Below are positions 19,884 through 46,410 of a stretch of DNA of 64,000 nucleotides, one piece after another. The DNA comes from a virus (Duplodnaviria; Caudoviricetes). A program made the translations under genes and the position numbers. The notes below the pieces were generated by a model. It searched no databases. It saw only the letters and a list, made by a program, of their open reading frames with translations, and had not been told where the DNA came from. Positions within the stretch are counted from its first letter, which is position 1; each line of letters opens with the position of its first letter. Where the stretch lies: positions 1 through 64,000 of the IMG/VR virus record IMGVR_UViG_3300009169_000019, one strand, 5' to 3'.

Positions 19884-22800
19884 TTATCTATTTGTTGTAT
19901 TAAATCTTATATCCCAATCTTTTCTAAAATCATCATCAAAAATTGCTCTTATTTGAATTCCTTCTTTAAATATAGGCATCATTTTTGATAAATATTTTGC
20001 AGGTTTTGCTTTTTCTAAAAGATCTTGATCATTTAAAACAAAACCGTATCCTTGACTAACAACCGATTCAGTAAATTTAAAAAAATCATCAGCTAATCCA
20101 ACTACAGGTAGTGGTTTGTTTACAAGATTTGACCAAGAAGGAGCACTATAAAAGAAAGAAAATTCATCAAAATATTTTCTAAATGCTCTTGCAGCATATG
20201 TTCTTAAACCGACATCTTGATCATCGTCATCATCATCACTCAATATTGTAAACATCAATGCTCCAATACCTATAATCATTAAGAATTCTCTGTACATTGA
20301 TTTTATATTACCAATATACATATCTATAAATTCACCTTCTGTTATATTAAATTCTTCACCTTTTTCAATAGCTTCAGCTTTTAATAATAAATATTTTTGT
20401 TTAGCTGCTTCTATCATATTTGTTCCACTTGAATTAATTATTCCAGTTAATAATTGGGGTGCTCTTTTACTAAATAATTCTCCAATCCATAAATTAAATT
20501 TACCAATTGTATGCACTTCAAGATCCTGATCATATTTTAATTTTCCAAATCTTTCTTGAACCATTTGTGGCATCCATGATCTAAATTGCATAGCCATAGA
20601 ACCTAACATACCCATTCTAATATTATTAATATCATCTCTACTAGAGTTACCTAAAACATTTTTGTTTACTTTCTTAATTTTTAATCTAAATCTACCCCAT
20701 TGTTCACTTTGTAAATCTATTCCGGGTATTTCAATTTTGTCATTAACAATTTTAGCAGTATTATAAATTGATTTTGTATCTTTTAAAGTTTTTACTTCAT
20801 CTTCTATTTTTTTTCTAATAACATCTTGTTCTGCCTTAGGAAGTGAATAAAATGATTCATTATATTTATATTTGGCTTTAACATATGTTTTTATATCTAC
20901 AATCTTTCCATTTTCATCAACCATATGATTTTTCATTATAGCAATTGCAATAGGATATTGTACAGCTTTATCACTTGCTCTCATCATAAAGAATGCTTTA
21001 TCTATGGTGTTAGCATTAATAATACTTGAAACAGAAAGTTTATTTATCATTGCTTCTTTTCTATCTTCTATTAATACATCTGCAACACCTAATAGTCCAA
21101 AAGCAATTTCATTTCTTTTGGTTATATCATAAATAGAAGAAGTCCAGTCAGCTGTGTTAAATATAATACCTTTACTTGCCTGGAAGAATGCATTACCTGT
21201 ACCACCCACAAAGTTTGCTGTTCCTGATAAAGGATTTAATGCAAGTGTTTTAAGAGAAAAGAATCTTGTCATCCATCCAAGTACTTTATGTGCAGAATAT
21301 TCTTTATCTCCAATCTTAAAAGCTTTATCTTCCATTTTACCGGATTGAATATTATAAAAATAATAATTAATAAAGTCTGAAAGTAATTGTGAGTTTATTT
21401 CGTTTCCTGGTATTTCTTTTTTAATTCCGCTTTCAAGTACAGGTTTACCAAACGGATTGGTCTCAATGTGAGGTTTATTTTTTTCAACAAACAATAATAA
21501 TCTTGCTTTATCTTCAATTTCAGACATTGACTGATAATTAGCTAATTGTGCAGACCAAATACCAAACACTCTAAACAAATCCATACTCTTTTGAGAATAA
21601 TCTAATGTACCATCTTCTCTTTCTATACCCATATCTCTAATAAAATGTGTAGGTATAGAATGTTCAATAGCACCTGTGATCGGATTGATTTGAGGAGCAA
21701 ATGGTGATTCTCCAGATTCAACTTCTAAACTTTCAAATATTCCTTTTTTAGAAAACATATCACCACCAAAAACAAATTGTTCTAATTTATTTCTACTTAT
21801 ATTAGGAATAAATGCGGGAGAATAATCATCAATTAGTCCTGCTTTATTAGATCTTTTTAGTAAATCCTGAAAAAAGTTATAAGTTTTTAAAGCAATCGGA
21901 CTTGCTTCTAGTTTTTTCCATTGTTCAGTTTGCCATTTTTCTTTTGGTTTTAAATATGAATTTAATACTTTTTTACCATTGTAATTATCCATGTTTAAAT
22001 AAGCATTCTTATTTTTATTTTTACCGCCAATATTTACATCATGTTTTTTCAACCAGTTATTATATGCTTCTTCCTGAAGTTCTTTATTTCTTCTTTCATT
22101 TTTAGAATCATACACAATAGTTTCATAAAACTCTTTTTGTCTTATTTTATCTTTATTGAATTTTTCTTCATTAAATTCTGTGTTGTCAATTAACCATATA
22201 CTATCTTCTGATTGCACAGCATCTTGCATTTTTTTATAAAACTCACTTTGATATTTTTTTAAAAACTTACCGGTCCATTCGCCTTTAGCATTATAATCTA
22301 AAAGAGGTTTAAATAAATCTTTATCAGAATATCCTTTAGAACGAGCCCATTCAACATATTCTTTTCTTAATGTAGAAAGTTCTTCATAATCTTTATTAAA
22401 TAAGTTATCTCTTTTATTTTGAGCATCACCAAGAATTCTACTAAACACCCTAAATGCTTTTTGAGGAATAGTACTTAATGAACTAAACATACCCGTTAAT
22501 TTAGATATTTCGGTTTCAGCATCTAACAAATTTACAATACCTGTTTTTTCTTGTGAAAATTTAAATGCAATATTTTTAATTGCATTTTGCATATCACTAA
22601 GTACAATGTCAGCAGAGGTATTCATTTGGTTGTAGTCATTTATTATTTCATCTACAACTTCTTTAACATATTCTTCTTTTGTTTCTTTTTTAATTTTTTT
22701 AAGTTCATTCATGTAATTATTAAATACACGTGTAGTATTTGTAAATACTTGTAATATTTCTAATGATTCAAGAGCATCTTTTTCAGTGAGATTGTTACTT

Positions 22801-25172
22801 TCAATTAATTTTTTATATTTATTAATTTCATAATTACCAAGGTCAATAAACTTTCTAATATCACCTCTGAGTTGCAAATCTCTTACGGCGTTTTTATATT
22901 TAGCTAATTCTATTTGTTTACGCCTACGTTCATCTTCCGTTCTATATTTTTTATTTTCAAGAATATCCATTACACTGCTTAACTTCTTAATGTATTCAGA
23001 TAGTTCTTTATCAGCAGATTTTTCATCTCTTAATGTAACGGGAAGTAAATAATTTTTATTATCAGGAATTGATGAAAGATCAAAACTACCCATTTCAATT
23101 TTATTAATTCCTTCAATAGTTCGTTTCTCTTCTTTTCCTGTGTATGAATAAACTACTTTAATAGGAATAGCCCTTACAAGTCCAAAGTTTTTAATGTCAT
23201 AATGTGTTTGAAGAATTTTTTTATACTCTTGTAACTGAATTCTATACATTGTTTCTTTGTATGATTTTAATTCAGTTTGTTCTTTTCCAATTTCTTGACT
23301 CTTCCAATCATATATGTTTGCTGTACCATCTGGTTCAATTACTAACAAGTCAATACTACCAGCAACATCTTTTATAGGGTCATATATTTTAACCTCACGC
23401 ATGAATTTAGTGCCGGGAGCATTGTAGTTTTCAATTAAATCTTGTATATATTTTTCAAATAATTTATAAGGATCTGTGTCAAAATATTTACTACTAGAAG
23501 CAGCTGGCATTTCTCTTACAAAATGTGTTTCAGGATCAACATAAACGTCTATTATATCCTGCATCATTTCGTGAATTACATCACCATAATCAGCTTTGAG
23601 AAGATCTATTTTCTTTTGTATTTCGCTTCTGTTGTCATTTGGAAATTTACGTTTTAACCACGCATCAACATACTTTGAAGTAACTGAAGATTTTATATCT
23701 TTACCATTAATGGTGTAGATGTGTCTTTTTTGTTTGGTTTTAGGATCAACGCTGTTGTCTAATTGAATATCTTTTTGATGTTGTTCAAGTTTTTCTATTC
23801 CTTCTAATTGATAATACTCACCTGTTTCTTGAATATTATCTTTAGATAAATTACTAATATCTGCTTTTAAAATACTTTCTGCTGATTGAACAAACGGATC
23901 TGTAACAGACTTAGTAAATAATTTCTTAATAAAATTTAATAATTTATCCCACCAATTATTAAATTCTTTTATTTTAGATTCTGACTCACCAACAGCAGAA
24001 TGTTTAACAATGTGTTGTGCAATAAGTTTACCTATTGCTTCTTTTTTAAGTTTATTAATATTAAGACTACCGTCTTTATTTCGATATTGACTGTTATTTC
24101 TATATGTCTGAACTGTGTCTTGGTATATTTTATATCCCGTAATTTTAGACATCATTTCAATAAAGAGAGGATTATTCTCACCCAACATTTCAACAAAAAA
24201 GTGAGCAGCTTCTTCCGGTAATGTTGTTATATCTGCTTTACCTTCTATCACTTCAACTATCTTATTAAGCATATCTGCTTTAGCAACAGCAGATAATTTA
24301 TTACCTTCTGCATTTCTTATTTCATCTACAGATTTAACAGATACACCAATCTTTTCTAAGAAGTTTTGTACTAATACATTTAATTCTTTATTGACTTTTT
24401 CTGTAGATTGTGTTTCTTTTTGAAGATATATTTCTTCTTTATTTTTTTCTGTTAATGTTATTTCATTCCATGTATTACCATATTCATCTGTAATTTGTTT
24501 TACATTCTCTTTACCGTATTGTTTATTAAGAACATTTTTTACAGTATTTTCATAAAAGTTATAAATAGGTTTTAAAGCACCAAATCCTTCTGTTTCTACT
24601 CTTTCAAGTTCTTGTTCAATTTGTTCTTTTTCACGTTTAGCTTCTTCAATTCTTCTTTCTATATTTTCAGGGTCATTTATTTCTCCATCTAAAAACTTAA
24701 TCCTATCTTCTTTCTGTTTTTTAAACTCTTCTAAAGTAGTATGGCCCTCAACTTTACTTGCTGTATTACCACTAGGAAATAATACTTTCTCATATCCTTT
24801 TTTAGCTGCATTTTGAATTATTGCTTTTATACCAAAAGTAATCCAGTTATCATTTTTATGTAACAAAGCTAAAAATTGATTATCTCCACCAGCATCTATA
24901 AAATCTTCAAAAGCTTTATTATAAACATTAGATGAAACTTCTACTTCATCTATTAAGTAAACCTTTTTACCATTATTATCAGCAGGTATAATAATATTAT
25001 GAGGAACTCCTCTAAACTTAAAATTATTTCTAAGTTTTTGAAAATAATCTGATTGATACTCTTGAACTCTAAGAGTTCTTGGTTGATTTATAAAATTAGG
25101 TTTAACAAACTCTTCTATAAAAGCTTGTTTATCTTTATATTCAACACCATTAAATATATATTTACATGCCAT
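19884..25172 (-). CDS. Large virion cargo/ejection protein (1762 aa): C-part of a QSD-motif domain, zincin-like EExxH domain, PD-(D/E)XK nuclease, helical C-terminal region
   Basis: VQEYQSDYFQK; TLPEEAAHFF; EVKIYD..VAGSIDLL..DG..NIYDWKS; hydrophobic segment FLMIIGIGALMFTIL; last gene of the vRNAP block. Confidence 0.8.
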   Translation of the reverse strand: MACKYIFNGVEYKDKQAFIEEFVKPNFINQPRTLRVQEYQSDYFQKLRNNFKFRGVPHNIIIPADNNGKKVYLIDEVEVSSNVYNKAFEDFIDAGGDNQFLALLHKNDNWITFGIKAIIQNAAKKGYEKVLFPSGNTASKVEGHTTLEEFKKQKEDRIKFLDGEINDPENIERRIEEAKREKEQIEQELERVETEGFGALKPIYNFYENTVKNVLNKQYGKENVKQITDEYGNTWNEITLTEKNKEEIYLQKETQSTEKVNKELNVLVQNFLEKIGVSVKSVDEIRNAEGNKLSAVAKADMLNKIVEVIEGKADITTLPEEAAHFFVEMLGENNPLFIEMMSKITGYKIYQDTVQTYRNNSQYRNKDGSLNINKLKKEAIGKLIAQHIVKHSAVGESESKIKEFNNWWDKLLNFIKKLFTKSVTDPFVQSAESILKADISNLSKDNIQETGEYYQLEGIEKLEQHQKDIQLDNSVDPKTKQKRHIYTINGKDIKSSVTSKYVDAWLKRKFPNDNRSEIQKKIDLLKADYGDVIHEMMQDIIDVYVDPETHFVREMPAASSSKYFDTDPYKLFEKYIQDLIENYNAPGTKFMREVKIYDPIKDVAGSIDLLVIEPDGTANIYDWKSQEIGKEQTELKSYKETMYRIQLQEYKKILQTHYDIKNFGLVRAIPIKVVYSYTGKEEKRTIEGINKIEMGSFDLSSIPDNKNYLLPVTLRDEKSADKELSEYIKKLSSVMDILENKKYRTEDERRRKQIELAKYKNAVRDLQLRGDIRKFIDLGNYEINKYKKLIESNNLTEKDALESLEILQVFTNTTRVFNNYMNELKKIKKETKEEYVKEVVDEIINDYNQMNTSADIVLSDMQNAIKNIAFKFSQEKTGIVNLLDAETEISKLTGMFSSLSTIPQKAFRVFSRILGDAQNKRDNLFNKDYEELSTLRKEYVEWARSKGYSDKDLFKPLLDYNAKGEWTGKFLKKYQSEFYKKMQDAVQSEDSIWLIDNTEFNEEKFNKDKIRQKEFYETIVYDSKNERRNKELQEEAYNNWLKKHDVNIGGKNKNKNAYLNMDNYNGKKVLNSYLKPKEKWQTEQWKKLEASPIALKTYNFFQDLLKRSNKAGLIDDYSPAFIPNISRNKLEQFVFGGDMFSKKGIFESLEVESGESPFAPQINPITGAIEHSIPTHFIRDMGIEREDGTLDYSQKSMDLFRVFGIWSAQLANYQSMSEIEDKARLLLFVEKNKPHIETNPFGKPVLESGIKKEIPGNEINSQLLSDFINYYFYNIQSGKMEDKAFKIGDKEYSAHKVLGWMTRFFSLKTLALNPLSGTANFVGGTGNAFFQASKGIIFNTADWTSSIYDITKRNEIAFGLLGVADVLIEDRKEAMINKLSVSSIINANTIDKAFFMMRASDKAVQYPIAIAIMKNHMVDENGKIVDIKTYVKAKYKYNESFYSLPKAEQDVIRKKIEDEVKTLKDTKSIYNTAKIVNDKIEIPGIDLQSEQWGRFRLKIKKVNKNVLGNSSRDDINNIRMGMLGSMAMQFRSWMPQMVQERFGKLKYDQDLEVHTIGKFNLWIGELFSKRAPQLLTGIINSSGTNMIEAAKQKYLLLKAEAIEKGEEFNITEGEFIDMYIGNIKSMYREFLMIIGIGALMFTILSDDDDDDQDVGLRTYAARAFRKYFDEFSFFYSAPSWSNLVNKPLPVVGLADDFFKFTESVVSQGYGFVLNDQDLLEKAKPAKYLSKMMPIFKEGIQIRAIFDDDFRKDWDIRFNTTNR

Positions 25173-25173
25173 T

Positions 25174-25911
25174 TTATTCTTTTATTTTAATATGATTCCA
25201 ATTTTGACCAGACTGAATAGCTTTAATTGTTCTAAGTTTTACGTTATACTTATCAGCTATAATTTGCTGTTTTACTTTATCTTTCAAAAGATATTTAATT
25301 TCTTTTACTTGTTTTTCAGTAAGTTTTGAAAATCCATTATTACTGCCTTTAGAAATAATATCTGTAACAATATTATGTTTCTTTTTTAATTGTGTAATTA
25401 CAGAGGGTGATAAATTGTGTTTTTCAGCAATTATATCTTGTCTAATCCCAGATTTTAAATCTTCTAAAATTTGCAAATTTCTTTGTTCTTTTTGTTGTCT
25501 AATAAAAGCAGTTTGTTCTCTGGTAATTTTTAATTTATCTTTATGTTTTCTTCCTACAGAATCCCAATATTTACTGTTTGAGATTTTTCTTTTTTCTATT
25601 GTTTCTTCAGATTGTTTTATTCCTAAACAATTACCTGCTACACTGCAAATATTATATTCAGGTTTTAAACTATCTAAATAAAATTGTTCTCTTTCAAGTA
25701 ATAAATTTTCATCACAATTTTCTAAAATAGAAAATTCAAAATTATCTGAACCATATTTATGAAAAGCTCTTTGTAAAGCTAATGAATGATGTACATTACA
25801 TTTTAAATCTGTTAAATGTCTTTTCCATCTTTTATTAAGTCTTATAGAACTTCCTATATAAGATTTTCCATTTATCTTATTTTTTATTTGATATATTCCT
25901 GATGTTTGCAT
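25174..25911 (-). mobile_element. Free-standing GIY-YIG homing endonuclease (probable start MQTSGIY)
   Basis: SGIYQIKNKINGKSYIGSS, RWKRH, LLEREQFYLD, YNI; NUMOD3-like KQSEETIEK; two C-terminal HTH-like repeats. Confidence 0.92.
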
Positions 25912-25916
25912 AACTA

Positions 25917-25948
25917 CAAATATACAACAAAATTCTGAATGTACCGAA
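25917..25948 (-). promoter_or_regulatory. Bacteroidota-type promoter for the GIY-YIG gene
   Basis: Minus strand reads TTCG-N20-TATATTTG-TAGTT-ATG. Confidence 0.6.
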
Positions 25949-25949
25949 T

Positions 25950-28052
25950 TTAAGAACATTTTATTTGAAGAATTTTACTATTTTCCATGATTTTCAACAA
26001 GTTATCAATATCCTGTTCTTGGTATTGCGCTTTTTCATCTGTTCTACTCCACATCAATCCTTTATCGGTAGCAAACTGAGCATGTCCTTTTATAGAAGGT
26101 TTAATTAGTGGTGTAGATATTTCTTTTTCTGTATAGTTGGTACCTCCTGGAACTGTTAGGTTAGAGTAATATTGAGAAGGGTTTTGTTTAAAATTATTTA
26201 AAGCTTTTTCAAATTCTTCTTTCGAAATTAACACTTCTTGTTCTTGAATATTACTTTTATAGTATTTTATACCATTTACACCCTTTACTATCTCATAATT
26301 AGTGTCATTAAAGTTAAAAGCTGAATAATTATCTTTAAAAGGGTCTGTAGTATAAGCTGTATTAATTTCAACAGTATAACTATAATTAGCAGCAAATGAT
26401 GTTAACTTTTCTTCAATAGTATTACCTTCTGATTCTTTTAATAAATTAACTTGATCTTTAGGTATTTGAAAATCTTGTTGTATTTTATTCCAGAATGTAT
26501 TATTATTACCTATTTGTTTCCAAAGTTTATTTATTTTATCTAAATTATTATATAAGTTTGATACAACTTTAAATTGATATTGTAAATTAGATTCTTCACC
26601 TATTGATTTATTTTTAGGAAGTTGAAAATATATAAATTCATTTTTTTCTATATCTCTTTTATTAAAGTTAGAAGTTCTATAATCTTCTTGATCTTTTTCA
26701 CGTTGAAACATTCTTTCATTTACATCATTTGGTGAAAGTGTTAATTTACCAAAATATATATCTTGTACTGATGAAAAACCACCTACAGATTGTTCTTCTG
26801 ATTCTGAATTGTATATAAAAAAATCAACAGGTATATTATATTGAGCAAGATTATTTATTTCTTTTTCAGATAAATTAGAACCATCTTCTTTAGTAAAAAT
26901 AGTTTCTTTTGAAGAAATATGTTTAATATTTGCAACAACCTCACCATTAGAATTAACTAAAGTATATTCTGTTAACCAACCTTTATTATCTCTATTTAAA
27001 TTTTTAAAAGTATAACCAGAAGCAGGTATTAAATAAGCATATGTTTTATATTTTTTTTCAGAACTACCCCAACCATCATGTATTGGTACAGCATTTATAT
27101 CTTGCATATGAGAATTTATTTTCTCATATTCTGTAACGCTATCAACAGTAAAATCTAAATCATGAATAGGTGCATTAGAAGGTCTATAAATAGTTTCACC
27201 TTGACCTGCAATAGCTAAACTACCTACAAGTTTATAATTAAAATCTTTACCTGTGTATCTACTAATTATATCTTTGGCTAAATTATTTCCTGAAACAGCT
27301 TGTTCATAATTTAATTTTTCAACTTTAGAATTAGGTGAACCAATAAAATTTTGATTTTCAGTTAATATATTAAATGCAATTTTATCAGCAGCATCTTTAA
27401 AATAACTTCCTTCTTTTAATACAAATGGTTTTGTAAATTTATTTAAAAATTCAGTTACTGCTTTAAGTATTTTTAATAATAAATTTCTTTCTTCTTTTGT
27501 TTTATTTGTCCATTGTTGTAATAAAGATTCTGTAATAAGTTTACCTAATGCTTCTACTTTAACTTGTTTTTCATTATTATAAACTGGCATATACTCATCA
27601 TATACTGCCTGATATCCTGACCAATCTTTAATGTTATCCATTAAATCTCTTATTAATGGATGTGTTTGACCCATTAACATTACAGTCATATGAACAGCTT
27701 CTTCTGGTATTGTATCTAATTTTTTTTCTACAGAATGATATATAATTTTATTAAGAACATCTGTAGCACCTAATGCATCAACTCCCCATCTTTCTTTAAA
27801 GTTTTTTATTTCATTAGATTGAACACCATATCTAGAAAGAAAATTTAAAAGTTTTGCATCTAATTTTTTATCAGCTTCTTTTATTTCTTGAGATGTAAGT
27901 TGATATTGTACGTCTACTTCAATTGAAACTTCATATTCATTTTTTGGAACAACTCCTTCATACTTATCCCATAAGTAATAAGCCATATCTTCACCTCTAG
28001 AAGATACTAATGATTTCCAAGAATCTAAATTTTTATTAGGACATGTTGCCAT
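25950..28052 (-). CDS. Virion cargo protein (700 aa): EExxH zincin-like domain, Pol-beta-type nucleotidyltransferase-like domain, N-part of a split domain
   Basis: TIPEEAVHM; LVGSLA..(x)..HDLDF..PVDFF; ends VPGGTNYTEKEI..GHAQF..WSRTDE plus tail. Confidence 0.75.
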   Translation of the reverse strand: MATCPNKNLDSWKSLVSSRGEDMAYYLWDKYEGVVPKNEYEVSIEVDVQYQLTSQEIKEADKKLDAKLLNFLSRYGVQSNEIKNFKERWGVDALGATDVLNKIIYHSVEKKLDTIPEEAVHMTVMLMGQTHPLIRDLMDNIKDWSGYQAVYDEYMPVYNNEKQVKVEALGKLITESLLQQWTNKTKEERNLLLKILKAVTEFLNKFTKPFVLKEGSYFKDAADKIAFNILTENQNFIGSPNSKVEKLNYEQAVSGNNLAKDIISRYTGKDFNYKLVGSLAIAGQGETIYRPSNAPIHDLDFTVDSVTEYEKINSHMQDINAVPIHDGWGSSEKKYKTYAYLIPASGYTFKNLNRDNKGWLTEYTLVNSNGEVVANIKHISSKETIFTKEDGSNLSEKEINNLAQYNIPVDFFIYNSESEEQSVGGFSSVQDIYFGKLTLSPNDVNERMFQREKDQEDYRTSNFNKRDIEKNEFIYFQLPKNKSIGEESNLQYQFKVVSNLYNNLDKINKLWKQIGNNNTFWNKIQQDFQIPKDQVNLLKESEGNTIEEKLTSFAANYSYTVEINTAYTTDPFKDNYSAFNFNDTNYEIVKGVNGIKYYKSNIQEQEVLISKEEFEKALNNFKQNPSQYYSNLTVPGGTNYTEKEISTPLIKPSIKGHAQFATDKGLMWSRTDEKAQYQEQDIDNLLKIMENSKILQIKCS

Positions 28053-28053
28053 A

Positions 28054-37000: not shown

Positions 37001-40000
37001 GATTCGGTTTTAAAACTAAATGTAGGAATTTGTCCAGGAATTAATGTTATAGATTCTGGATTTGTATTTTGTTTAATTTCGGGTTGTGCTGTTTCTTTTT
37101 CAATAGACGACACATCAGTAGCTGTTCCAAATTTAAATATTGGAATTTGACCAGAAACTAATTGAATTGCGGCACCACCAACTCCAGGTATTGTTACAGC
37201 AGATTGATTTTTATAATTAATAATAGGTTTAAAATCATCATCAACATTTCTATATGTAAGATTTGAACTTTTAACTTGAGGAGTGTTCACATCTGTTTCA
37301 CTATACAATGGTGTATTGGTGTATACTACAGGAGTAGATGTTTTAAATAAATATTCTGTGTAATTTGAATATTCCGCGTCTATAATTACATTATTATCTT
37401 TATCTACTACCGGAACATAGAATGGAATATTTGTTTTTGTTAATAAAGAGTTATTAACCTGATGTCTTAATTCAGAAACAATATCTTCTTTATTTTCTTC
37501 AATGATAGATGGGTTTAAATCATACGGAGTTCTACCTCTATATAACATTCCAGTTTGATTAATGTAGAACTTATTTTCCGATTCAATAACATTATCATCA
37601 GTTGCCCAAAATACCAATCCTTTAAAATATGATAAAATTAAATTTTTGTTTGCTTCTTCATCGGTAGTTAATTTTTCAACTTTTTCTTTCTGATAAATTT
37701 TTGCATAATATTTAAGCAGACTAATAAAGTTATCTTTTTCTTCTTGGGTTAGCTGTCTATTAAACAATCTAAAAATCTGACCATCATCTCTTTTCATATA
37801 AAGACGACCGGGCTTAATACCATCAGATTTATCTGTAGCAACTTTTAGTTTAATACCTTGACCATTTGGATGTCTTAAATTAGCAAAGTCAGTTGTATTT
37901 TCTTCAATAACTCTACCTTGTAATTCAAGTTCTTGAGGTAATCCATTTTCTCCCATTGGAAGCATCACTTGCTGACCTACAGTTTTTCCAGTGATAGGAA
38001 TATACATATCAGCATTTTCAGAAACAGTAGCTCTGATATTTTTTACAAAATCTCTATATTTAAAGATCATGTTGGTTATCTGCTCTTTTGTAACACCTTT
38101 TGTAGTAAATCTTTCTTCCACCCATTCTACCGCACTGCTTATATCACCAAATAATTGTTCTTGATTCATCCTCAAACTTGTATAAACAATATTATCAGAT
38201 GTAGGATTATCTATTTTGTTTCCAACTATATCAACCGGAAAATAATTTTCACCTTCTTTTCTAACTACAACAACTTTAATATCATTTTCATCAATAGTAA
38301 TATTATAAGGATCATTAGCTCTTGTTACAGGCATTAAAAAATATTCACCACCTTCTACGTTTACATTATCAGTAAATTTAAAAAATCTAGCATTACCGCT
38401 TTCTTGATTTATTTCTGTATCATTTTTATCTATATAATGTCTTCCAGTAGTAAGATATAAACCTGTTAAACCAATAAGAGGTCTTTTAAATTCATCTTCG
38501 CTTACAAATAAATCATCACCATTAACAACTTCTACAATATTTGCATCAGGATTTAATTTTGCGTTTTTAGCTCTTTCAGCAGTTGTGGTTTCAAATTGAA
38601 TTCTTCTTCTTTCTTTTATATAACCAACTTCTTCAAATAATTCATTTTGAATATATTTTAAAAAGTCAACTCTTTCTTGAAGTGTAGATAGTTCTCCAAG
38701 TTGTGCCGATGCTTGTTGAAGTCTTTGTAGTTTTGGATAGAGCTCATTATTAATTTTATCAAATGCATTTTTTGCATTTTTAAAAGCACCACTTAAATTA
38801 AATACTACTTGACTATATAAATTATTTTGAACAATCCCCTTTCGTAAAAATTTTAAAAATTCTATTTTATCTGCATCTTGACTATTATCTTCTATTTCTT
38901 TCAAATATTTTGTAAGCCATGCTTTGCTATTATCACTATTAAGTATATCAATTACATCAATATATTTACTTAATTTTTTCCAAATTTCTTTTGCTCTTTC
39001 AGAAAATTCTTTAAACTTTTCAATTAATTCTTTAAGTTCTTCAATTTCAAACTCCGTATCTTCTACAAGTTTATCTACCTGTTCTTTGCTATATCTTTTT
39101 GTTATTAATTCTTTTCTATAATCTTCAAGTTTAGATTCAGCTTCACCATAAATTGTACCAGTTTCATCTGTTTGAAAAACTTCTTTAGTTTTTTCAATTT
39201 CATCTAATGCATTATAATAGTTATTTCTTGCTTCAACAAGAGATTCATTTAATGTATTTAAATCTTCTAATTCTTCATTTAAATTAACAATGGTAGATTC
39301 AATAGATTGAATAGCATTTGGAAAACTATTAATCTTTTCTTTCATTTTAATATACTCAGCCTTCTTTCTACCTGTTTTCGAAGGAGGATTTTTTTCTATA
39401 TAATCTTGCGCACTAGCAAGTTCTTCCTGAAATAATTCTAATTCAGCTTGTAAATCCTGAAGTCTTTTACTGTTGCTTTCTTTTTTAGCTTTTGTTTCTT
39501 CAAGCTTTTCTTCAACACGATTAATTAAATTAACTAATGCTGATTGTTGATCTTCTAAATCTTGAACATTTTGTTTTTCTGCTTCTTGTAAAAGAATTTC
39601 TTTATTTATAGAATCAATAATTAATCCAAATCCAGAAGGCTGTCTTTTAAGAGCATATTTCTCATAATACTTTAAATTGAAAGGTACTTTAATAACTTTC
39701 ATTTTACTCTTAGAATTAGGGTTTTTATACTGCATGTAGAGTTTAAAAACTCCATCTTCAGTGTATTCACCAACAAGAGCAGCATCAACACTTACACTTG
39801 TATCTGTATAATCATTTTCGTCAAGTCTATGAGGCTTACTATATTTCTTATTAATTTTAATTCTAAACTGCTTATCTCTATTTACATAGAAAAACCTTTC
39901 AAATAAATCAAGATTTTTAAAATTTTTAAGAAGACCAAACTCATTAGCAAATTCTTCTGCTGTTTTAGTTTCCAGAGTTGGTTGATAGTTTAATTGATAT

Positions 40001-43000
40001 GTAATATTATCACCTTCAATAGAAACTATTTTAATAATATTTTTTGTATACTTTGATTTTTTTAATTTCTTATCTTCTGTAAGATAAAAGTTATTTTCTA
40101 CAATTTGAATACTGCCAGGCTCACCATTAATGTCTACTACATCAATTGTAATTCTATTTGCATTCTCATCATAGATTTCATCTAATTGTTCTGCAATAGA
40201 ATTTGCCTCTTCTATTGTTTCAAATTTATCAACATACGTACCTTTTGGAGAAAAAAGCACATATTTATTTTTAAGTCTTAATACAAAGTGTTTATTATTT
40301 TTTGGATTTTTTTCAATATAATCCTTACCTGCATCCTCATACATTTTAGTGTCACCCATCATTTCCATAATTTCACCAAGATGGGCTTGATGCAATCCTT
40401 CAAAGCCTGCTGGATTAGCAATAGTATTAAAATAACTTACAGCATCTTCAAAGTCTGTTTGTAAACGAAGATAGTCAAATATGTCCCCTACAGCATTATT
40501 AATAACATCTGTAGTGGTAATTACACTAACATCCGGGTTATCAAGTTTTAATATTTCAGATATTGCTTGTGAATTTTCTTTTAGAAACTCTGCTTTAATT
40601 TTTTTAATTTCATCAACGTTATCTCCAGCTTCTTCAATTTGTGCAGAATATTTTTCAACACTTTCTTTATATTTATTAAATAAATCGAGTTTTTGTTTTT
40701 TCTCCTCTTTTAATTTTGGATCAGATGTTGCTTCAAACTCTTTTTGTAAAAGTTCTAATTCTTTCTTAAGAGTAATGGAAGGAGAAGTTAAAGAATATAA
40801 AGAATTAAAATTTAAATTAGGAAAATTATTTTTAATATTAGTAAGAATTTCTTTTTGTCTTTTAGCAACATCTAAATAAGTAGATTTAGAAAAAGCCATT
40901 TGATTAATTGCTTCTTCTGCTGCCATATAGTTTGCAACTTCTGCATTATATTCAGGAGTACCCACCTTATAATTTTTTGGATTATAGGGGTTTCCATAAT
41001 TATCTCTTATTTTTTCATAAGTGTCTTTTACTTCTTTTACTTTTGATTCAAATGTACTAACCAACCCAGTCATTACATTTTTAGATTGTTCTTCTGATAA
41101 TCCATCATAAAGCGAACCTGCATATGCTTGTTTAAATTCATCTGGATTAAGATCACTGATAGATTCTTTCATTCTATCAATAATAACATCCTCCATTCCA
41201 GACTTTACAATGTTTAATACATATTTATTAATAAAGTCATTTTTACTATCCCAATATTCTTTTTTTCTACCTTCTTTTCCATTTAATCTCATAGAACTAT
41301 CAAGCTCAACAAGAGATCTGTAAAAATCAGTTTTATTGTTAGTGGATTGATTTAATAAAGCAACAAGTTTATTTCTTTCTTCATTTGCTCTTTGTACACT
41401 AGATTTATATCCATCTGTATTAACTGTTTTATCATATAAGCTTTTTGCACCTTTTATACCACCACCTAATACATTTAAAATACCACCAGTTAAAAAACCA
41501 CTCATGAATGTTTTTAAACCATCCATGGTAAGTTGTTCTTTAGCACCGGCATATAGAAAATCATTAATTCCTTTTTGATTTAATCTTTGCTGTTCTGTAC
41601 CATAATTATATAAATACCATTGTTTAGTAGCACTATCAATAACATCTTGTCCAGTTTCTTGTAAACCCTCAACTACATTTGTTTTAGCATATTCTAATGG
41701 AAACTTAATAAGTGTTTTAAATGGAGAAGTTTTTAATTGATGTGTAAAGGCAGCAACTCCTTTCTTTGCAACAAATAAATCACCACCTTCTTTAATTGTT
41801 TTCTTAGTGTTAGTGAATATACCTTTTGCTACTAAATCATCATCTAAAAATCTAGTTCCTTTAAAAGTTCTCAATATACCATCAAATGCAATCTTATCTG
41901 TTAAGGCAATCCATGCTGCCTGAACTGCACCTTCTGTTTGAACTGTTTCAAAAGCTTTCTGTTTAAGTTTAGTTTTTAATTCTTCACTGGGTTCAAAACC
42001 ATTTATATTTTTATATTCTTCAATGGCAGTTTCATATGCTTCATTCATGACAGGTGCTACAGTAGCTTTTGCTTCTGTAATGCCTGCGTTAAGCATTCTA
42101 AGATCTCTATAGAATGCTCCAAAACCACGAGCTGTAGTTCTTAAAGCACCAACACCTTGACCAAATGCTCTTTGATCAATTCTTGCAACTTTAGAAAAAT
42201 CTGTTATATACTCAGCAGTATTCTGTAAAGGATTAACAAATTTAGTCACTGAGTTGTTAAATATTTTTCTTAATACATTTGTAGACTGTAAAGACTTTTC
42301 AAGATTTCTAGTATTATTAATTACTTTTCCTAACTTAGATGCAAGTTGAATACTTCTTGCTGCTTGAATTTCAGATGCACCACCAAAAGTAGCAGCAGTT
42401 AGCGCACTTAATGCAAATTCTTCTGCTGCTATTTCTAATACAGCTCCTATTGCATATCCACTTTGTTGTATCATATTGCTAAAGTTAGATACATTCCAAA
42501 ATGTATTTCTATCTTCTTGTGTTTGAAAAATATGATATTTATTATTGAAATCATTTTGCCAACTGTTAATAGCTTCAAGTTCACTTTGTTTAAATGGACT
42601 ATCACCTTTAAAAATATCCACGGTGTCACCCCACGAAAGAAACTGATCTTTCATCTGACTGAGTGCTAATGAACCAGAACCCATTATAGCATTAGATAGT
42701 TTATTCCAATTTGTTTGTGCACTACCGTAGGTTTCTTCAATATCCATTCCAGGAATAACACCAATATCTTGAAAATAATCAGATTGTAAAGCAGATTGAA
42801 ATCCTGGAACAGCAGGTGCTTCAAATCTTTGTGCTTGTATAAATGGATCTTGTTGTAACTTTTGTTTTCCAAGTGCCATACCGCGATCTATATCGGCATC
42901 TGATAATCCTATCAATTTATATTGCGGTTGACTTGTAGAAGTTAATTTATCAAATGTTAATTTATCAAAATTTAATTCTTTAAAGGGATTTTCTGGAACA

Positions 43001-43092
43001 AAAGTTTCAAGTGTTCTAATGTTTTGAACTTCAGGAACTATTGGTGTTACCTGTTCTTCACCTATGGTTAAATTTTTTAAATTACTTTCCAT
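28054..43092 (-). CDS. Giant virion RNA polymerase polyprotein (5012 aa), crAss-like two-barrel RNAP
   Basis: Catalytic GSDFDIDK (DFDID at 31846-31860), preceding FRIPTQ, DGQGW, KHS; zincin-like FHEAFE; size and context typical of Crassvirales vRNAP. Confidence 0.93.
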   Translation of the reverse strand: MESNLKNLTIGEEQVTPIVPEVQNIRTLETFVPENPFKELNFDKLTFDKLTSTSQPQYKLIGLSDADIDRGMALGKQKLQQDPFIQAQRFEAPAVPGFQSALQSDYFQDIGVIPGMDIEETYGSAQTNWNKLSNAIMGSGSLALSQMKDQFLSWGDTVDIFKGDSPFKQSELEAINSWQNDFNNKYHIFQTQEDRNTFWNVSNFSNMIQQSGYAIGAVLEIAAEEFALSALTAATFGGASEIQAARSIQLASKLGKVINNTRNLEKSLQSTNVLRKIFNNSVTKFVNPLQNTAEYITDFSKVARIDQRAFGQGVGALRTTARGFGAFYRDLRMLNAGITEAKATVAPVMNEAYETAIEEYKNINGFEPSEELKTKLKQKAFETVQTEGAVQAAWIALTDKIAFDGILRTFKGTRFLDDDLVAKGIFTNTKKTIKEGGDLFVAKKGVAAFTHQLKTSPFKTLIKFPLEYAKTNVVEGLQETGQDVIDSATKQWYLYNYGTEQQRLNQKGINDFLYAGAKEQLTMDGLKTFMSGFLTGGILNVLGGGIKGAKSLYDKTVNTDGYKSSVQRANEERNKLVALLNQSTNNKTDFYRSLVELDSSMRLNGKEGRKKEYWDSKNDFINKYVLNIVKSGMEDVIIDRMKESISDLNPDEFKQAYAGSLYDGLSEEQSKNVMTGLVSTFESKVKEVKDTYEKIRDNYGNPYNPKNYKVGTPEYNAEVANYMAAEEAINQMAFSKSTYLDVAKRQKEILTNIKNNFPNLNFNSLYSLTSPSITLKKELELLQKEFEATSDPKLKEEKKQKLDLFNKYKESVEKYSAQIEEAGDNVDEIKKIKAEFLKENSQAISEILKLDNPDVSVITTTDVINNAVGDIFDYLRLQTDFEDAVSYFNTIANPAGFEGLHQAHLGEIMEMMGDTKMYEDAGKDYIEKNPKNNKHFVLRLKNKYVLFSPKGTYVDKFETIEEANSIAEQLDEIYDENANRITIDVVDINGEPGSIQIVENNFYLTEDKKLKKSKYTKNIIKIVSIEGDNITYQLNYQPTLETKTAEEFANEFGLLKNFKNLDLFERFFYVNRDKQFRIKINKKYSKPHRLDENDYTDTSVSVDAALVGEYTEDGVFKLYMQYKNPNSKSKMKVIKVPFNLKYYEKYALKRQPSGFGLIIDSINKEILLQEAEKQNVQDLEDQQSALVNLINRVEEKLEETKAKKESNSKRLQDLQAELELFQEELASAQDYIEKNPPSKTGRKKAEYIKMKEKINSFPNAIQSIESTIVNLNEELEDLNTLNESLVEARNNYYNALDEIEKTKEVFQTDETGTIYGEAESKLEDYRKELITKRYSKEQVDKLVEDTEFEIEELKELIEKFKEFSERAKEIWKKLSKYIDVIDILNSDNSKAWLTKYLKEIEDNSQDADKIEFLKFLRKGIVQNNLYSQVVFNLSGAFKNAKNAFDKINNELYPKLQRLQQASAQLGELSTLQERVDFLKYIQNELFEEVGYIKERRRIQFETTTAERAKNAKLNPDANIVEVVNGDDLFVSEDEFKRPLIGLTGLYLTTGRHYIDKNDTEINQESGNARFFKFTDNVNVEGGEYFLMPVTRANDPYNITIDENDIKVVVVRKEGENYFPVDIVGNKIDNPTSDNIVYTSLRMNQEQLFGDISSAVEWVEERFTTKGVTKEQITNMIFKYRDFVKNIRATVSENADMYIPITGKTVGQQVMLPMGENGLPQELELQGRVIEENTTDFANLRHPNGQGIKLKVATDKSDGIKPGRLYMKRDDGQIFRLFNRQLTQEEKDNFISLLKYYAKIYQKEKVEKLTTDEEANKNLILSYFKGLVFWATDDNVIESENKFYINQTGMLYRGRTPYDLNPSIIEENKEDIVSELRHQVNNSLLTKTNIPFYVPVVDKDNNVIIDAEYSNYTEYLFKTSTPVVYTNTPLYSETDVNTPQVKSSNLTYRNVDDDFKPIINYKNQSAVTIPGVGGAAIQLVSGQIPIFKFGTATDVSSIEKETAQPEIKQNTNPESITLIPGQIPTFSFKTESQPVAEQVSKNINAETEPISIGKRLEQIQAQGIFVEPVSPEQPKPLSESEKEEALKAFNQSGGVNILSAGLGGVKPNEAYRLQLEQSVIQTEDFKKVEEWFKSKLPNIKVVKVAELIDGKAWGAFKNSIVYIYENAEIGTGFHEAFEAVWNAYLTVQEQNEFVEEFRNREGSFTNPFSKETKNYSEASHYDVREMLAEEFRNYILSEQEQISTEEKGFFGKIKQFFKDLWSTIKKYVGLSKKEKSEGESAINKLFNKINAGNYSNVRFARDISEMGTSYREVVPNTTQEFTTQFIDGLSSYFFQNLHNPNLFTDNKGNFISLNIESLLTEDENNNKILRKLFETSMSNIYEQLFGQGSIFFTNYFAPTFINYQKQIGRNLTVEENNEIKNIAYNKFSEKNRYASMIENAFQNSTIVYNILKQSLQKYGLQFAEVKDGAEEDSAPNELDVVDTSGIRDTIYIDPRRLTATSFKILIGSLTKDIYDSKTNQIYTKKNSLNLPELVDYDATLNLLLNELNGTYSKLEVDQNGEVLFVDALKAMFKKLDEKYFDKKVNQYKPNFVWINKLKKRLKYSGEAINYFTKENINIDDLKLLIGFEKSLMNKKNTPSKLIINEDSSIYLMNALESTNEDRIREEWQGELPRNLKLVTDKEENNNQLLGIDDTGNIVFDKKSVQYREFLKLKNNNDKNISIQTALLYLKDMGVAFTGVEYKENKTISDIPLNIINKRSDVISSFIKIKNSIISNEENSIINIADLYSNIGPESGNMKKLIDIEKIMRYDSSVLTHTTASGETQYSITLPASINYVLSSLNESKTLADFVASNPQFGTAGYDENGEQVVNVFAYQTNSQLLKPGGLIFDENGNKKNNIDYTLISGVTSMDTNGVDTANLTYPDRIMQEINYIINADKEGLKPIYFTIINSDKSSEFGLTFSKPFISARIAEYDIDNPNFNKVLDIYLQHLEDEIDAAIVEKALKSNIQYYSDNVKYLGHFKDVLKFKTEKELKKSGERKSGLQVRFENLLAGKITKEEFLADNVIKELIKNDLKETVNFTIDALIELGIINQITEDQFTTDAINTQVLNDYFQIDSSNITRNQLEKLVKYITINKELAVTEQHKLLYGHPALYKDLAKRANGINSSKDAIVDNPHIISKMDSLIPRFDEKIRASEKIQTFKNISFKDVTAVSNFYKQIAENLYKSILLDGISLTEAQNRVGANFNEDGTFKNFILKDGKFTGEIKAYVELNEADGQGWIMSDMYRDMLFLSGKLSQKQLDQIDYEIAYEVVARSNKSKTDPAYKTYNKGKYAVKWAEGILKKGNPNVPLPVIKPQYFGYAVNTSMMHTVFLKHSVQPKFYRSVEGTEYEKLYLAAQNNQIDVIGFESGEKVGAMLNPKTGEFVSIIKNDGAVNIELKNKQWQLPSGLPVQSLYTKFYGIQSEQPAVYKNKVVRGTQLTKLIMSNFKVNGKYINDRAEVLITNYNRLIENIVKKGKEQLLVELGITKEKDGSYTVNDYTNMINLLRKELTKRDLPSNLVDALDVNPNTKGLLYRFDTLANRDKIDNILNSIMDSRVISAKMFGKPAVQVAFTGYNSTNRTMMYLKDGVYTEMKPDDQLTEDETKSLIPTSSDLKFYELKDGKISKMEIYIPWYFENVEPEDFGMKLVNGVYQIPANMDKRLLNMIGFRIPTQGMNSIENIVVKGFLPRESGDMIVVPTEIVGKAGSDFDIDKMNLYIPNYKLKYTRFTKETINDFKSTDYYKDLPKTVKNKIKNLTEEEFKDMVEDLNQFSAGSGLGKFGDLEDYLVAQNITGEDYIFYTTFKDALIKYNKYRKDVIKNNRINNKAFTPIIESIEYVEIGQDSMESLQNELRETMEELISMPENYRQLIMPNSTATLKSLANEINDLKGKKDAENSMLALRKFIQSAETRERYLTGKRLVGIAALQSTSHIMSQISDIVLSGKYEVSKMKFLVKYDPEFKTEDGKYVKAISINLSHNESKLGEFYINAKTDAEGRWISENISEALSGFVDAAKDPFVFSLNINFNTAGTWFYLQKLGVPMKEIAYLFNQPAVENFMKSENMNNSIFRKVNKNVTFREQIFINSISKYVKIYNNEMSSVIDQINEKTNILNTTESLNEQEVINLRVEIKALKEKLFQGINEIKNKYKKPTVDELKNAIKNLNNPKYKITEDDAAMQIMLLTDYLDYVEQSSYLTEFIGAIGYDNKKTKTIIENQLQLIRWNRMLEAGFIKNPDSILDKTFIGEMKKQKEDLFSVFENMFISLDRRAYPVFEKMYEFLEDREKFISNDDKSLLINKYQRFFITYVIQNTNFKLGEIETNISAKFKELMMGENSITKQLQLLKNSEDYNISQNLAIKELIPIFANNVDDQDNIKLFRNKMTTFKNDVLIESINNLLDYAKASGNTQLENFVYNLSIFSILQSGLQDSTINYTKILPAHLYSQVVNSILDVYMNSEFTIDPNLVWKQFHQNNKSDRNIVIRPQFKKFEKYTGNVLLDTDYSDSNYEYIATSKRKNGITDSQIEKLKKFGKLYKAFDTYLHQRIGYKTIQGKFKEREYAIYSPIVASGDGRNYTETSMENQLQSNLKKNNIVTPEGYKKPSQYEETPSISSLASVPAVTQETLRNLQEATQAAIQTLQQLNPQAAATILNQPTLQTSIQKQQPLGEIKLNIIEDWVQTGQATTTVRNSSYHNSFYKGDGVYTTDKGNLVNITHRGFVKLQGDKVVGNGFSYTKDEFAKAEGFGTWANFEKGAKYAGKTLMDGGSVHLYNITPATKVVQPSASVQPKGTINVYWGQAESTTSTRILSNLAPRKFSYESIDGVTREYGSVEHAYQSNKNGKFDKVTYDAYVAKGGYGVKIAPKLTEVGKRANLQIMKDLVVESFIQNPNSEAAKKLLQYENFTHNTNELIDKAFLEGLKLAQQRLLSSQQSTSVEGAEVVSGKTITLKDAVSYPVSKINSKLLESIGYTPLQIGNILKSIC

Positions 43093-46384: not shown

Positions 46385-46394
46385 TTCTATGTAT

Positions 46395-46410
46395 TATATT
46401 ATAAATATAC
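46395..46410 (-). promoter_or_regulatory. Candidate late-promoter motif, copy 2 (GTATATTTATAATATA)
   Basis: Intergenic, 10 nt before the 1078-aa gene start. Confidence 0.55.

What the first reader, a model, noticed from the sequence alone, without database searches (positions are those of the whole stretch)
19884..43092. Terminal-cysteine couplers: three giant injected proteins appear built to link head-to-tail
Seen: reading the translations by eye, the 5012-aa vRNAP has one Cys, its last residue (...NILKSIC*). The 700-aa protein has two, C4 (MATCPN) and C699 (...LQIKCS*). The 1762-aa protein has one, C3 (MACKY). That is four Cys in 7474 residues, and they pair exactly across the two gene junctions. 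The outer ends (vRNAP N-terminus, 1762-aa C-terminus) have none. The two junctions use different flanking peptides (J1: KLLESIGYTPLQIGNILKSIC + MATCPNKNLDSWKSLV; J2: DNLLKIMENSKILQIKCS + MACKYIFNGVEY). Established: Crassvirales cargo proteins are ejected through the narrow tail, probably unfolded, and ejected proteins are usually Cys-poor. Inference: orthogonal docking peptides place two Cys together to form a disulfide or other covalent link. This would make one ordered chain for packaging and ejection that could come apart in the reducing cytoplasm. I know of no description of this system.
Basis: partly seen in the sequence, partly recalled or inferred. Interest (0 to 1): 0.92.

Follow-up and report, generated by a model that had tools for sequence, protein, structure and literature searches.

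The report
Cysteine-tipped ends chain crAss cargo proteins
Three giant proteins that this crAss-like phage probably packs and injects, including its RNA polymerase, have no cysteine except one at each end that faces the next protein, a rule kept by every relative examined, which points to untested end-to-end disulfide links like one already seen in a cyanophage.

Summary
p5012 has one Cys (C5012), p700 has C4 and C699, and p1762 has C3: 4 Cys in 7,474 residues.

The pattern is conserved and lies at protein level.
- All 86 related loci have a Cys in the last 1-6 residues of the upstream giant protein and at position 3-4 of the next.
- That Cys is the only invariant column in the last 120 residues across 52 sequences.
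- Nine named crassvirus-like genomes obey the rule, including phi14:2 g067/g066/g065. Two of them encode the first protein on the opposite strand.
- Where the genes are fused the Cys are absent.
- A split healed by a group I intron in cr108_1 has no Cys pair.

A disulfide is not shown here. There is a precedent: in cyanopodophage A4, cryo-EM shows gp27 Cys1715 bonded to gp26 Cys5 (PMC12002296). I found the same single-Cys signature in that genome. I found no printed description of the rule for Crassvirales.

This scan has noted the same rule before on other genomes. My best reading is a redox-cleavable, single-file chain of cargo proteins, at confidence about 0.6.

The parts
28054..43092 (-). 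p5012, a giant virion RNA polymerase fusion protein. Residues ~2100-4650 are homologous to crAss vRNAPs, with the DFDID catalytic motif at 3745-3749. Its only Cys is the last residue.
   Evidence: (phi14:2 g066, E 2e-30)
28057..28176 (-). Conserved C-terminal tail module of p5012 (last ~40 aa, ..DG..Y..IN..LE.IGY.P..IG.ILK.IC), ending in Cys5012 (TGT, 28057-28059).
   Evidence: Cys is the only invariant column in 52 aligned tails
27945..28052 (-). Conserved N-terminal head module of p700 (MATCPNKNLDSWK.LV..RGED.AYYLWDKY.G.VP) with Cys4 (TGT, 28041-28043). It starts 1 nt after the p5012 stop codon.
25950..28052 (-). p700, the middle link, with Cys only at 4 and 699 (TGT, 25956-25958). Its C-terminal third carries the first half of a conserved domain (..LTVPGGTNYTE..GHAQFATD..W.R.DE).
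25174..25911 (-). GIY-YIG homing-endonuclease gene inserted at junction 2. The mechanical ORF starts at 25959 and overlaps the end of p700.
25070..26150 (-). Block shared at 84-94% nucleotide identity with the otherwise ~40%-identical contig of L002. It holds the last ~65 codons of p700, the endonuclease gene and the first ~33 codons of p1762, so both Cys-tipped ends lie inside the co-converted block.
19884..25172 (-). p1762, the last link, with Cys only at 3 (TGT, 25164-25166). Its N-terminus carries the second half of the split domain (..TLRVQEYQSDYFQK..). A PD-(D/E)XK nuclease domain lies at residues 523-746. There is no Cys at the C-terminus.
43148..48434 (-). Two upstream proteins (p1078, p658) with no Cys at all. 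They share the Cys-depleted block but have no tipped ends.

Best explanation
p5012 (vRNAP fusion), p700 and p1762 are the RNA-polymerase cargo block of a crAss-like phage. I infer that in the virion the C-terminal Cys of each protein forms a disulfide with the Cys at position 3-4 of the next. The conserved tail and head modules would bring the two Cys together. The result would be one nearly linear thread of 7,474 residues with side stubs of at most a few residues. This is the covalent equivalent of the single fused polypeptides that relatives encode.

The absence of all other Cys would prevent loops, branches and wrong partners. Those would block passage of a partly unfolded chain through the tail, or trap it in an oxidising periplasm. 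Reduction in the cytoplasm would then release the separate enzymes.

Shown here: the Cys pattern, its conservation, its gain at splits and its absence at fusions. Shown elsewhere: such a bond in phage A4, and the presence of the phi14:2 homologues in virions. Inferred: the bond in this phage, its role in packaging or ejection, and its reduction.

Junction 2 is a recent split of a conserved domain in its variable linker. It now houses a homing endonuclease. The split allele with both Cys-tipped ends has moved together with that endonuclease between two divergent phages.
For: (1) Pattern in the window: 4 Cys in 7,474 residues, all at facing ends. Background is 1.09% Cys.

(2) Junction 1 in 86 of 86 related loci (6 viral, 80 metagenomic). 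The upstream protein has a Cys in its last 1-6 residues and the next protein has a Cys at position 3-4. No search pattern contained the tail Cys. All 33 of 33 loci carrying the Cys-free search motif also have the head Cys. In 52 aligned tails (mean column identity 19%) the Cys is the only invariant column.

(3) Depletion in relatives. 74 unique downstream proteins (114,580 residues) hold 79 Cys, of which 74 are the N-terminal one. 43 of 45 complete ones have that Cys alone. The only one with a C-terminal Cys (L018..KKEEC*) is followed after 1 nt by a gene starting MKGSCP.

(4) Protein level, not DNA level. Both TGT and TGC occur. The stop-to-start gap varies (-17 to +19 nt, three frames). The preceding base is not fixed. 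In PhiCrAssBcn24 and cr85_1 the first protein is encoded on the opposite strand yet has its only Cys at the C-terminus.

(5) Generality. There are 12 facing pairs in 9 named genomes: phi14:2, cr108_1, PhiCrAssBcn24, FPSV-S29, cr4_1, cr118_1, Rudgehvirus jaberico, cr107_1 and cr85_1. None of 9 outer N-termini and none of 10 outer C-termini has a Cys in the 10 terminal residues printed.

(6) Fusions lack the pair. The domain split at junction 2 is continuous with 0 Cys in 19 of 67 unique relatives, and the other 48 lack one or both motifs. It is also continuous in L004. The g067|g066-type boundary lies at about residue 2,250-2,400 of Cys-free p5012, by approximate alignment. FPSV-S29 has the same fusion with a single Cys at 4418.

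(7) Natural control. In cr108_1 the two vRNAP ORFs have no Cys pair and are separated by a group I intron (RF00028, 80 bits, E 1.6e-20) placed in the DFDxD motif.

(8) Precedent. In phage A4 the gp27 Cys1715-gp26 Cys5 disulfide was seen by cryo-EM (PMC12002296, passages). In KF356198, gp27 (1,717 aa) and gp26 (1,114 aa) each have exactly that one Cys.

(9) crAss001 virions do contain inter-subunit disulfides, and their vRNAP cargo must partly unfold to pass the tail (PMC10172136, passages). Cys suppression in ejected proteins is documented for Schitoviridae (PMC11445570).

(10) Co-fold of tail (A2) with head (A3): ipSAE 0.50, best of 3 controls 0.01. The tool's verdict was 'weak support'. The mark was reached by 58 of 80 solved complexes and 2 of 110 mismatched pairs. 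At 0.60 or under it was reached by only 7 of those 80 solved complexes and by both of the 2 mismatches that passed. The runs agree in >=64% of contacts and the partner's pLDDT is >=60.
Against: - No measurement of any bond exists in this phage or in any crassvirus.
- The co-fold pass is weak, and no contacts or S-S distance were given.
- Virions assemble in a reducing cytoplasm, and gut crassviruses live without oxygen. When and how oxidation would occur is unknown. A search for an Erv1/ALR oxidase in the 72-kb record was uninformative, because the control found nothing anywhere.
- Drobysheva et al. suggest that the fused polyproteins are cleaved into components. If that is true, an unbroken chain is not required.
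- Interior Cys depletion is not universal. Gut phages have internal Cys: 7 in the cr4_1 4,491-aa protein and 17 in the MH552500 4,253-aa protein.
- In PhiCrAssBcn24 one 'terminal' Cys is 9 residues from the end.
- Pairing of the opposite-strand protein with its partner is assumed, not shown.
- Many of the 86 loci are close relatives (55 unique junctions), so the counts are not independent events.
Confidence: 0.6

Rival explanations
1. The facing Cys do sit together but do not form a disulfide. They share a metal ion, or simply pack in a non-covalent tail-head interface that holds the proteins together.
For: The head and tail modules are conserved beyond the Cys. The co-fold gives weak support for an interface. 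A reducing cytoplasm and an anoxic gut disfavour disulfides.
Against: Two thiols are a poor metal site on their own, and no His or extra Cys is conserved next to them. The same sequence signature in phage A4 is a disulfide in the cryo-EM map. The position of the Cys at the very tip, with variable neighbours, fits a tether better than a packed core.
Confidence: 0.13
2. Each terminal Cys acts on its own. It bonds to another partner (capsid, portal, a host periplasmic thiol-disulfide protein), or serves as a processing or modification site. The facing arrangement would then be a by-product.
For: No direct evidence was obtained here. Bacteroidota use disulfide attachment in their envelope machinery (search listing only).
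Against: The Cys always come as a C-terminal plus next-N-terminal pair. None of 9 outer N-termini, none of 10 outer C-termini and only 1 of 45 complete downstream proteins has a C-terminal Cys, and that one has a Cys-headed successor. Both Cys appear together at new splits and both are absent in fusions.
Confidence: 0.1
3. The Cys codons are passengers of DNA-level features. These could be translational-coupling signals at gene junctions or flanks carried along with homing endonucleases, with no role in the proteins.
For: Genes at junction 1 are coupled (gaps of -1, 1 or 3 nt in 52 of 55 unique junctions). Junction 2 with both Cys lies inside a block co-converted with an endonuclease gene. L002 has endonuclease genes at two Cys-tipped junctions. 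In the window all four TGT follow an A.
Against: The Cys position, frame offset and gap all vary. TGC also occurs. The preceding base is A in only 15 of 55 tails and 23 of 55 heads. The rule holds for genes on opposite strands. 11 other loci with related endonucleases show no Cys-tipped flanks. Most junctions have no endonuclease.
Confidence: 0.04
4. Junction 2 only: p700 and p1762 are exons joined at RNA level. The endonuclease would sit in a group I intron, so C699 and C3 are never protein ends.
For: GIY-YIG endonucleases often live in group I introns. Such an intron does split the vRNAP gene of cr108_1.
Against: There is no Intron_gpI match in 24800-26300 even at E<=10, and no Rfam family at gathering score in 19000-44000. 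Only 38 nt and 1 nt are non-coding. The tail (27 aa) plus head (30 aa) together replace the 30-70-aa linker of the fused forms.
Confidence: 0.03

Closest known systems
Cyanopodophage A4 (Anabaena phage A-4L, Saffermanviridae) pre-ejectosome pair gp27-gp26, PNAS 2025, PMC12002296
   Same: Two consecutive large ejection proteins. The upstream one (1,717 aa) has its single Cys 3 residues from the C-terminus. The downstream one (1,114 aa) has its single Cys at position 5. Cryo-EM shows these two bonded, with the C-terminal helix of gp27 docked in gp26.
   Different: There is no detectable sequence similarity to the window proteins (best BLASTP E 0.30). A4 is a T7-like podophage and no vRNAP is involved. 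It has one link rather than a chain of two or more. The passages I read do not present it as a general rule. In the window the bond is only inferred.
RNA-polymerase cargo block of cultured crassviruses: phi14:2 g067-g066-g065 and crAss001-type gp47/gp49/gp50
   Same: The vRNAP core is homologous. The giant neighbours are homologous (p700 and p1762 hit the PhiCrAssBcn24 1,349-aa and cr108_1 1,714-aa proteins). The Cys rule is identical. The proteins were detected in virions, according to record notes and the preprint.
   Different: The window fuses the g067-like and g066-like parts into one 5,012-aa protein and splits the g065-like part in two, with a homing endonuclease in the gap. The papers I searched or read in passages do not mention the terminal Cys.
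Cys-free ejection proteins of Schitoviridae (N4 gp50, DEV gp71-73), PMC11445570
   Same: A giant injected vRNAP and its partners with strongly suppressed Cys (0.00075% against 0.865% for the proteome). The explanation given is passage through the periplasm.
   Different: Those proteins have no terminal Cys pairs. Depletion there is total, and linkage is not proposed.
Genes split by homing endonucleases and healed by introns or inteins
   Same: A mobile endonuclease gene sits inside a conserved coding region and its flanks are co-converted. The product must still function.
   Different: There is no ribozyme, and no room for an intein because the Cys lie 1-4 residues from the ends. The two halves stay separate polypeptides with Cys-tipped ends.

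Membership tests
Crassvirales virion RNA polymerase (phi14:2 gp66 type) | Sequence homology to gp66-type two-barrel RNAP | tested here: met
   tblastn of p5012 residues 2100-4650 hit 127 phage records, including phi14:2 g066 'Catalytic RNA polymerase subunit' at E 2e-30. BLASTP of g066 627-1654 against p5012 2912-4090 gave E 1.2e-35.
Crassvirales virion RNA polymerase (phi14:2 gp66 type) | DFDxD catalytic motif | tested here: met
   DFDID at p5012 3745-3749. The motif is named in the preprint abstract.
Crassvirales virion RNA polymerase (phi14:2 gp66 type) | Packaged in the virion and injected | not testable with these tools
   Inferred from the homologues. MS/MS notes in NC_021806 and the preprint passage.
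A4-type terminal disulfide between consecutive ejection proteins | Lone Cys at the extreme C-terminus of one giant protein and a lone Cys at position 3-5 of the next | tested here: met
   Window. A4 gp27 C1715 of 1,717 and gp26 C5.
A4-type terminal disulfide between consecutive ejection proteins | Physical S-S bond between the two | not testable with these tools
   Only a weak co-fold pass (0.50 against a best control of 0.01). No distances were given.
A4-type terminal disulfide between consecutive ejection proteins | Homology to A4 gp27/gp26 | tested here: not met
   BLASTP best E 0.30. The likeness is one of design, not of descent, as far as BLASTP can see.
Split intein / protein trans-splicing | Intein N- and C-domains flanking the break, with Cys as first intein residue and as +1 extein residue | tested here: not met
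   The Cys lie 0-1 residues from the C-termini and 2-3 from the N-termini, which leaves no room for intein domains. There is no Pfam intein/Hint hit in p700, p1762 or either half of p5012.
Group I intron carrying a homing endonuclease | Ribozyme core around the endonuclease ORF | tested here: not met
   No RF00028 match at E<=10 in 24800-26300. The positive case, cr108_1, scored 80 bits.
GIY-YIG homing endonuclease (gene at 25174-25911) | GIY-YIG catalytic domain plus a DNA-binding tail | tested here: met
   Pfam GIY-YIG 1.6e-11 and HTH_23 1.2e-4. PHROG 314 and 7168 'homing endonuclease' at 3.6e-26 and 6.9e-25.

The most novel reading that the evidence does not exclude
Crassviruses, and by convergence at least one cyanopodophage, build a redox-cleavable 'train' of injected proteins. 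A single disulfide at the extreme tips joins separate gene products into one thread that packages and ejects like a polyprotein and falls apart in the cytoplasm. Because a Cys-tipped head and tail can replace a peptide bond, cargo genes can be cut, shuffled and colonised by homing endonucleases without loss of function. This would be a protein-level way of tolerating gene splitting, alongside introns and inteins. Junction 2 of this window would be a caught-in-the-act example that travels with its endonuclease.
Probability: 0.35. Interest if true: 0.85.

Novelty: new variant of a known kind. Interest (0 to 1): 0.76.

Why it matters
If the links are real, they explain three things at once:
- how crassviruses, the most abundant phages of the human gut, keep several giant enzymes in order and in 1:1 ratio during packaging and injection;
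- why these proteins avoid cysteine;
- why the same block can be one, two, three or four genes in different lineages.

It also turns an open question, how metre-scale unfolded cargo is threaded through a narrow tail, into a simple bench test on cultured phages (phi14:2, crAss001-type). That test is a gel with and without reductant, plus one disulfide peptide in MS. The sequence signature could be used to predict ejected protein chains in uncultured phages.

Tried and rejected
- **Chance or composition.** Rejected.
- **Out-of-frame ATG.** In the window all four TGT follow an A. Rejected, because only 15 of 55 tails and 23 of 55 heads have A there.
- **Frameshift or readthrough joining the ORFs.** Rejected, because the gap and frame vary.
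- **Group I intron at junction 2.** No match.
- **Endonuclease carries its own Cys-tipped flanks to other genes.** 11 loci with relatives of the endonuclease (<=53% identity) show ordinary intergenic settings and no such flanks. A scan with the p1762 head found only the L002 contig again. Mobility of the split allele therefore rests on one pair of genomes.
- **Fold of the continuous form of the split domain (L003, alignment A4).** Mean pLDDT 52.9 and pTM 0.26, with the conserved core below 50. It is unusable, so no fold search was run.
- **Family and structure searches.** Pfam and PHROGs give no family for p700, p1078, p658 or either half of p5012. p1762 has no PHROG family and in Pfam only the PD-(D/E)XK domain. 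PDB sequence searches of p700, p1762 and p5012 2100-5012 found nothing. tblastn of p700 against the phage collection found nothing.
- **Erv1/ALR oxidase search.** Void, because the controls found nothing.
- **Head type against tail type.** All 10 'LP.W' heads go with tails whose Cys is 2-3 residues from the end, and 41 of 45 other heads go with tails ending in Cys. This is probably a clade effect. I do not use it as evidence of co-evolution.
- **Literature.** Searches found no description of terminal Cys in crassvirus cargo. The library lacks most subscription papers, and supplements were not consulted. Only the legend of Bayfield Extended Data Table 2 (disulfides of the tail) and no SI of the A4 paper was seen.
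Full report
**What is there.** The minus strand of the window carries a run of very large genes:
- p658 (46458-48434)
- p1078 (43148-46384)
- p5012 (28054-43092)
- p700 (25950-28052)
- a 245-aa gene (25174-25911)
- p1762 (19884-25172)

p5012 contains a crAss-type virion RNA polymerase. Residues 2100-4650 hit 127 phage records by tblastn, among them phi14:2 g066 'Catalytic RNA polymerase subunit' at E 2e-30. The catalytic DFDID motif lies at 3745-3749. p700 and p1762 both hit the 1,714-aa protein of cr108_1 (E 2.6e-17 and 7.8e-66) and the 1,349-aa 'RNA-polymerase subunit' of PhiCrAssBcn24. p1762 also has a PD-(D/E)XK nuclease domain. The record is a 72-kb viral fragment.

**The observation.** p1078 and p658 have none. 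The 24 other ORFs of >=150 aa hold 1.09% Cys, so about 100 would be expected in these five proteins (9,210 residues). Four are seen (P 5.6e-38), and each lies within 4 residues of an end that faces the next protein (post-hoc P about 2e-12). Junction 1 reads TGT TAA T ATG GCA ACA TGT. Junction 2 reads TGT TCT TAA, then 38 nt, the endonuclease gene, TAA A ATG GCA TGT.

**Conservation at junction 1.** A scan of viral contigs with p700 gave 9 loci. A metagenome scan with the aligned p700 head gave 80 more. One of its two search patterns included the Cys and the other did not. In all 86 loci that have this head, the upstream giant protein carries a Cys 1, 2, 3 or 6 residues from its end. L048 was checked by eye, and its tail lies behind an in-frame stop. 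These loci reduce to 55 unique junctions. All 33 of 33 loci that carry the Cys-free search motif have the head Cys. In an alignment of 52 tails of 120 residues (mean column identity 19%), the Cys is the only invariant column. The head has eight invariant residues, Cys4 among them. The 74 unique downstream proteins (114,580 residues) contain 79 Cys, 74 of them the N-terminal one. The 76 unique upstream segments (128,114 residues) contain 99, and 53 of the 76 have none outside the last six residues.

**Protein level or DNA level.** Both TGT and TGC occur (53/2 at tails, 51/4 at heads). The stop-to-start distance is 1, -1, 3, 12, 19 or -17 nt. The base before the Cys codon varies. In PhiCrAssBcn24 and cr85_1 the first protein of the set is encoded on the opposite strand, far from its presumed partner. 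It still has its only Cys 3-4 residues from the C-terminus, while the partner starts MSKRC or MSC. Selection therefore acts on the proteins.

**Generality.** I examined ten named crassvirus-like records from the phage collection. Nine show complete facing pairs, 12 in all:
- phi14:2: g067 has a single Cys, its last residue. g066 has C3 and C2179 of 2,180. g065 has C3 only.
- The others are cr108_1, PhiCrAssBcn24, Flavobacterium phage FPSV-S29, cr4_1, cr118_1, Rudgehvirus jaberico, cr107_1 and cr85_1.

The tenth record (MH552500) starts MSC, but I did not look at its partner, which lies across the record's start. None of 9 outer N-termini and none of 10 outer C-termini has a Cys in the ten residues printed. 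Against a strict reading, gut phages keep several internal Cys (7, 5 and 17 in three giant proteins), and one 'terminal' Cys lies 9 residues from the end.

**Splits and fusions.**
- The part of p700 after residue 478 and the first ~250 residues of p1762 are two halves of one conserved domain (..LTVPGGTNYTE..GHAQFATD..WFRSDE / variable linker / TRRILEVQSDLFQKGR..). The domain is continuous and Cys-free in L003, L005 and L004, and in 19 of 67 unique downstream proteins. The other 48 lack one or both motifs. The window's tail (27 aa) and head (30 aa) together take the place of the 30-70-aa linker.
- L018 shows another split of the downstream protein..KKEEC* then MKGSCP after 1 nt.
- Conversely, p5012 joins what phi14:2 and PhiCrAssBcn24 encode as two proteins with a Cys pair. 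The boundary maps, roughly, to residues 2,250-2,400 of p5012, which has no Cys there. FPSV-S29 has the same fusion with a single Cys at 4418.
- One split has no Cys pair: the 2,967-aa and 798-aa ORFs of cr108_1. The 290-nt gap between them is a group I intron (RF00028, 80 bits, E 1.6e-20) sitting in the DFDxD motif. The two ORFs are exons of one protein. This is the control one would ask for: a break healed in RNA needs no Cys.

**Junction 2 and the endonuclease.** The window and the 155-kb contig of L002 are about 40% identical in DNA on either side. They are 84-94% identical from 26150 to 25070. That stretch covers the last ~65 codons of p700, the endonuclease gene and the first ~33 codons of p1762. 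L002 has a different gene order, with its vRNAP part downstream of the p1762-like head. It also has a second endonuclease gene at another Cys-tipped junction (..QCP* / MGC..). The split allele with both tips has thus moved together with the endonuclease, as expected for homing with co-conversion. I cannot tell whether the endonuclease made the split or settled in an existing one. No ribozyme is present. Relatives of the endonuclease elsewhere have no such flanks. No third copy of this split was found.

**Mechanism.** I infer a disulfide between each tail Cys and the next head Cys, giving one nearly linear chain.

Support from outside the window:
[quoted passage not shown] In its genome these are the only Cys of a 1,717-aa and a 1,114-aa protein. 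There is no sequence similarity to the window.
- crAss001 virions have inter-subunit disulfides, and their vRNAP cargo must partly unfold to leave (PMC10172136, passages).
- Ejected proteins of Schitoviridae suppress Cys (PMC11445570, passages).
- The phi14:2 study used recombinant gp66 alone in DTT and has no occurrence of 'cys' or 'disulfide' (preprint, passages). It could therefore not have seen a link.

The co-fold of tail and head alignments scored 0.50 against a best control of 0.01. The tool rates this as weak support. The mark was reached by 58 of 80 solved complexes and 2 of 110 mismatches. At 0.60 or under it was reached by only 7 of the 80 and by both passing mismatches. The runs agree in >=64% of contacts, and the partner's pLDDT is >=60.

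**Comparison and novelty.** The design matches the A4 pair but is not related to it by detectable descent. It extends to chains of two or three links that include the vRNAP. In five literature searches I found no description of it for Crassvirales. Earlier notes of this scan report the same rule on at least 85 other genomes and pointed me to the A4 paper, which I checked. I rate it a new variant of a known kind. The comparative evidence is strong, the chemistry is untested, and a gel could test it directly.

Noticed in passing
window 25174-25959 (-): GIY-YIG homing-endonuclease gene between p700 and p1762. The 16 codons upstream of its likely start (M17) stay open in both the window and L002, and the ATG of that long ORF overlaps the Cys699 codon.
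   Followed up: partly
L090 (MT774385, cr108_1) 17657-17975: A group I intron (RF00028, 80 bits) interrupts the vRNAP gene inside the DFDxD catalytic motif. The record annotates the two exons as separate proteins, the second with a non-ATG start.
   Followed up: partly
window 11385-11630 (+): Thioredoxin-family ORF (PF00085, 32 bits, E 6e-9) in the opposite-strand gene block. Thioredoxin genes are also annotated in cr108_1, Rudgehvirus jaberico and MH552500. A link to reduction of the cargo chain is only a thought.
   Followed up: no
window 51382-55272 (-) and 48445-51306 (-): The 1,296-aa protein has its only Cys as C25, C28, C44 and C47, which looks like a small metal-binding knuckle. The 953-aa protein has C28, C35, C279 and C282 and a DUF3597 hit.
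   Followed up: no
L019-L087, genes just downstream of the MATCPN protein: Many related loci have genes starting M..xC(S/T)A.PCP.. with Cys at 5, 10 and 18, or MRTAEICPTCA.. with Cys at 7, 10 and 18. This is a different, conserved N-terminal Cys cluster of unknown role.
   Followed up: no
window 25950-28052 and 19884-25172, against L001 and L003: p700 is a mosaic. Residues 42-477 are 97% identical to L001. Residues 1-49 are 92% and 479-689 are 63% identical to L003. p1762 is 88% identical to L003. L001 lacks the split domain altogether.
   Followed up: partly
L048 about 870-1045: The upstream giant gene has an in-frame stop about 55 codons before its Cys-tipped end (..STKP*PSTSP..). This could be a sequencing error, a recent break or a recoded stop.
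   Followed up: no
L094 (cr4_1) 4989-18464: The fused 4,491-aa protein has a Cys at 2180, about 80 residues after the domain that ends the separate first protein in other phages. It could be a relic of a former junction or chance.
   Followed up: no
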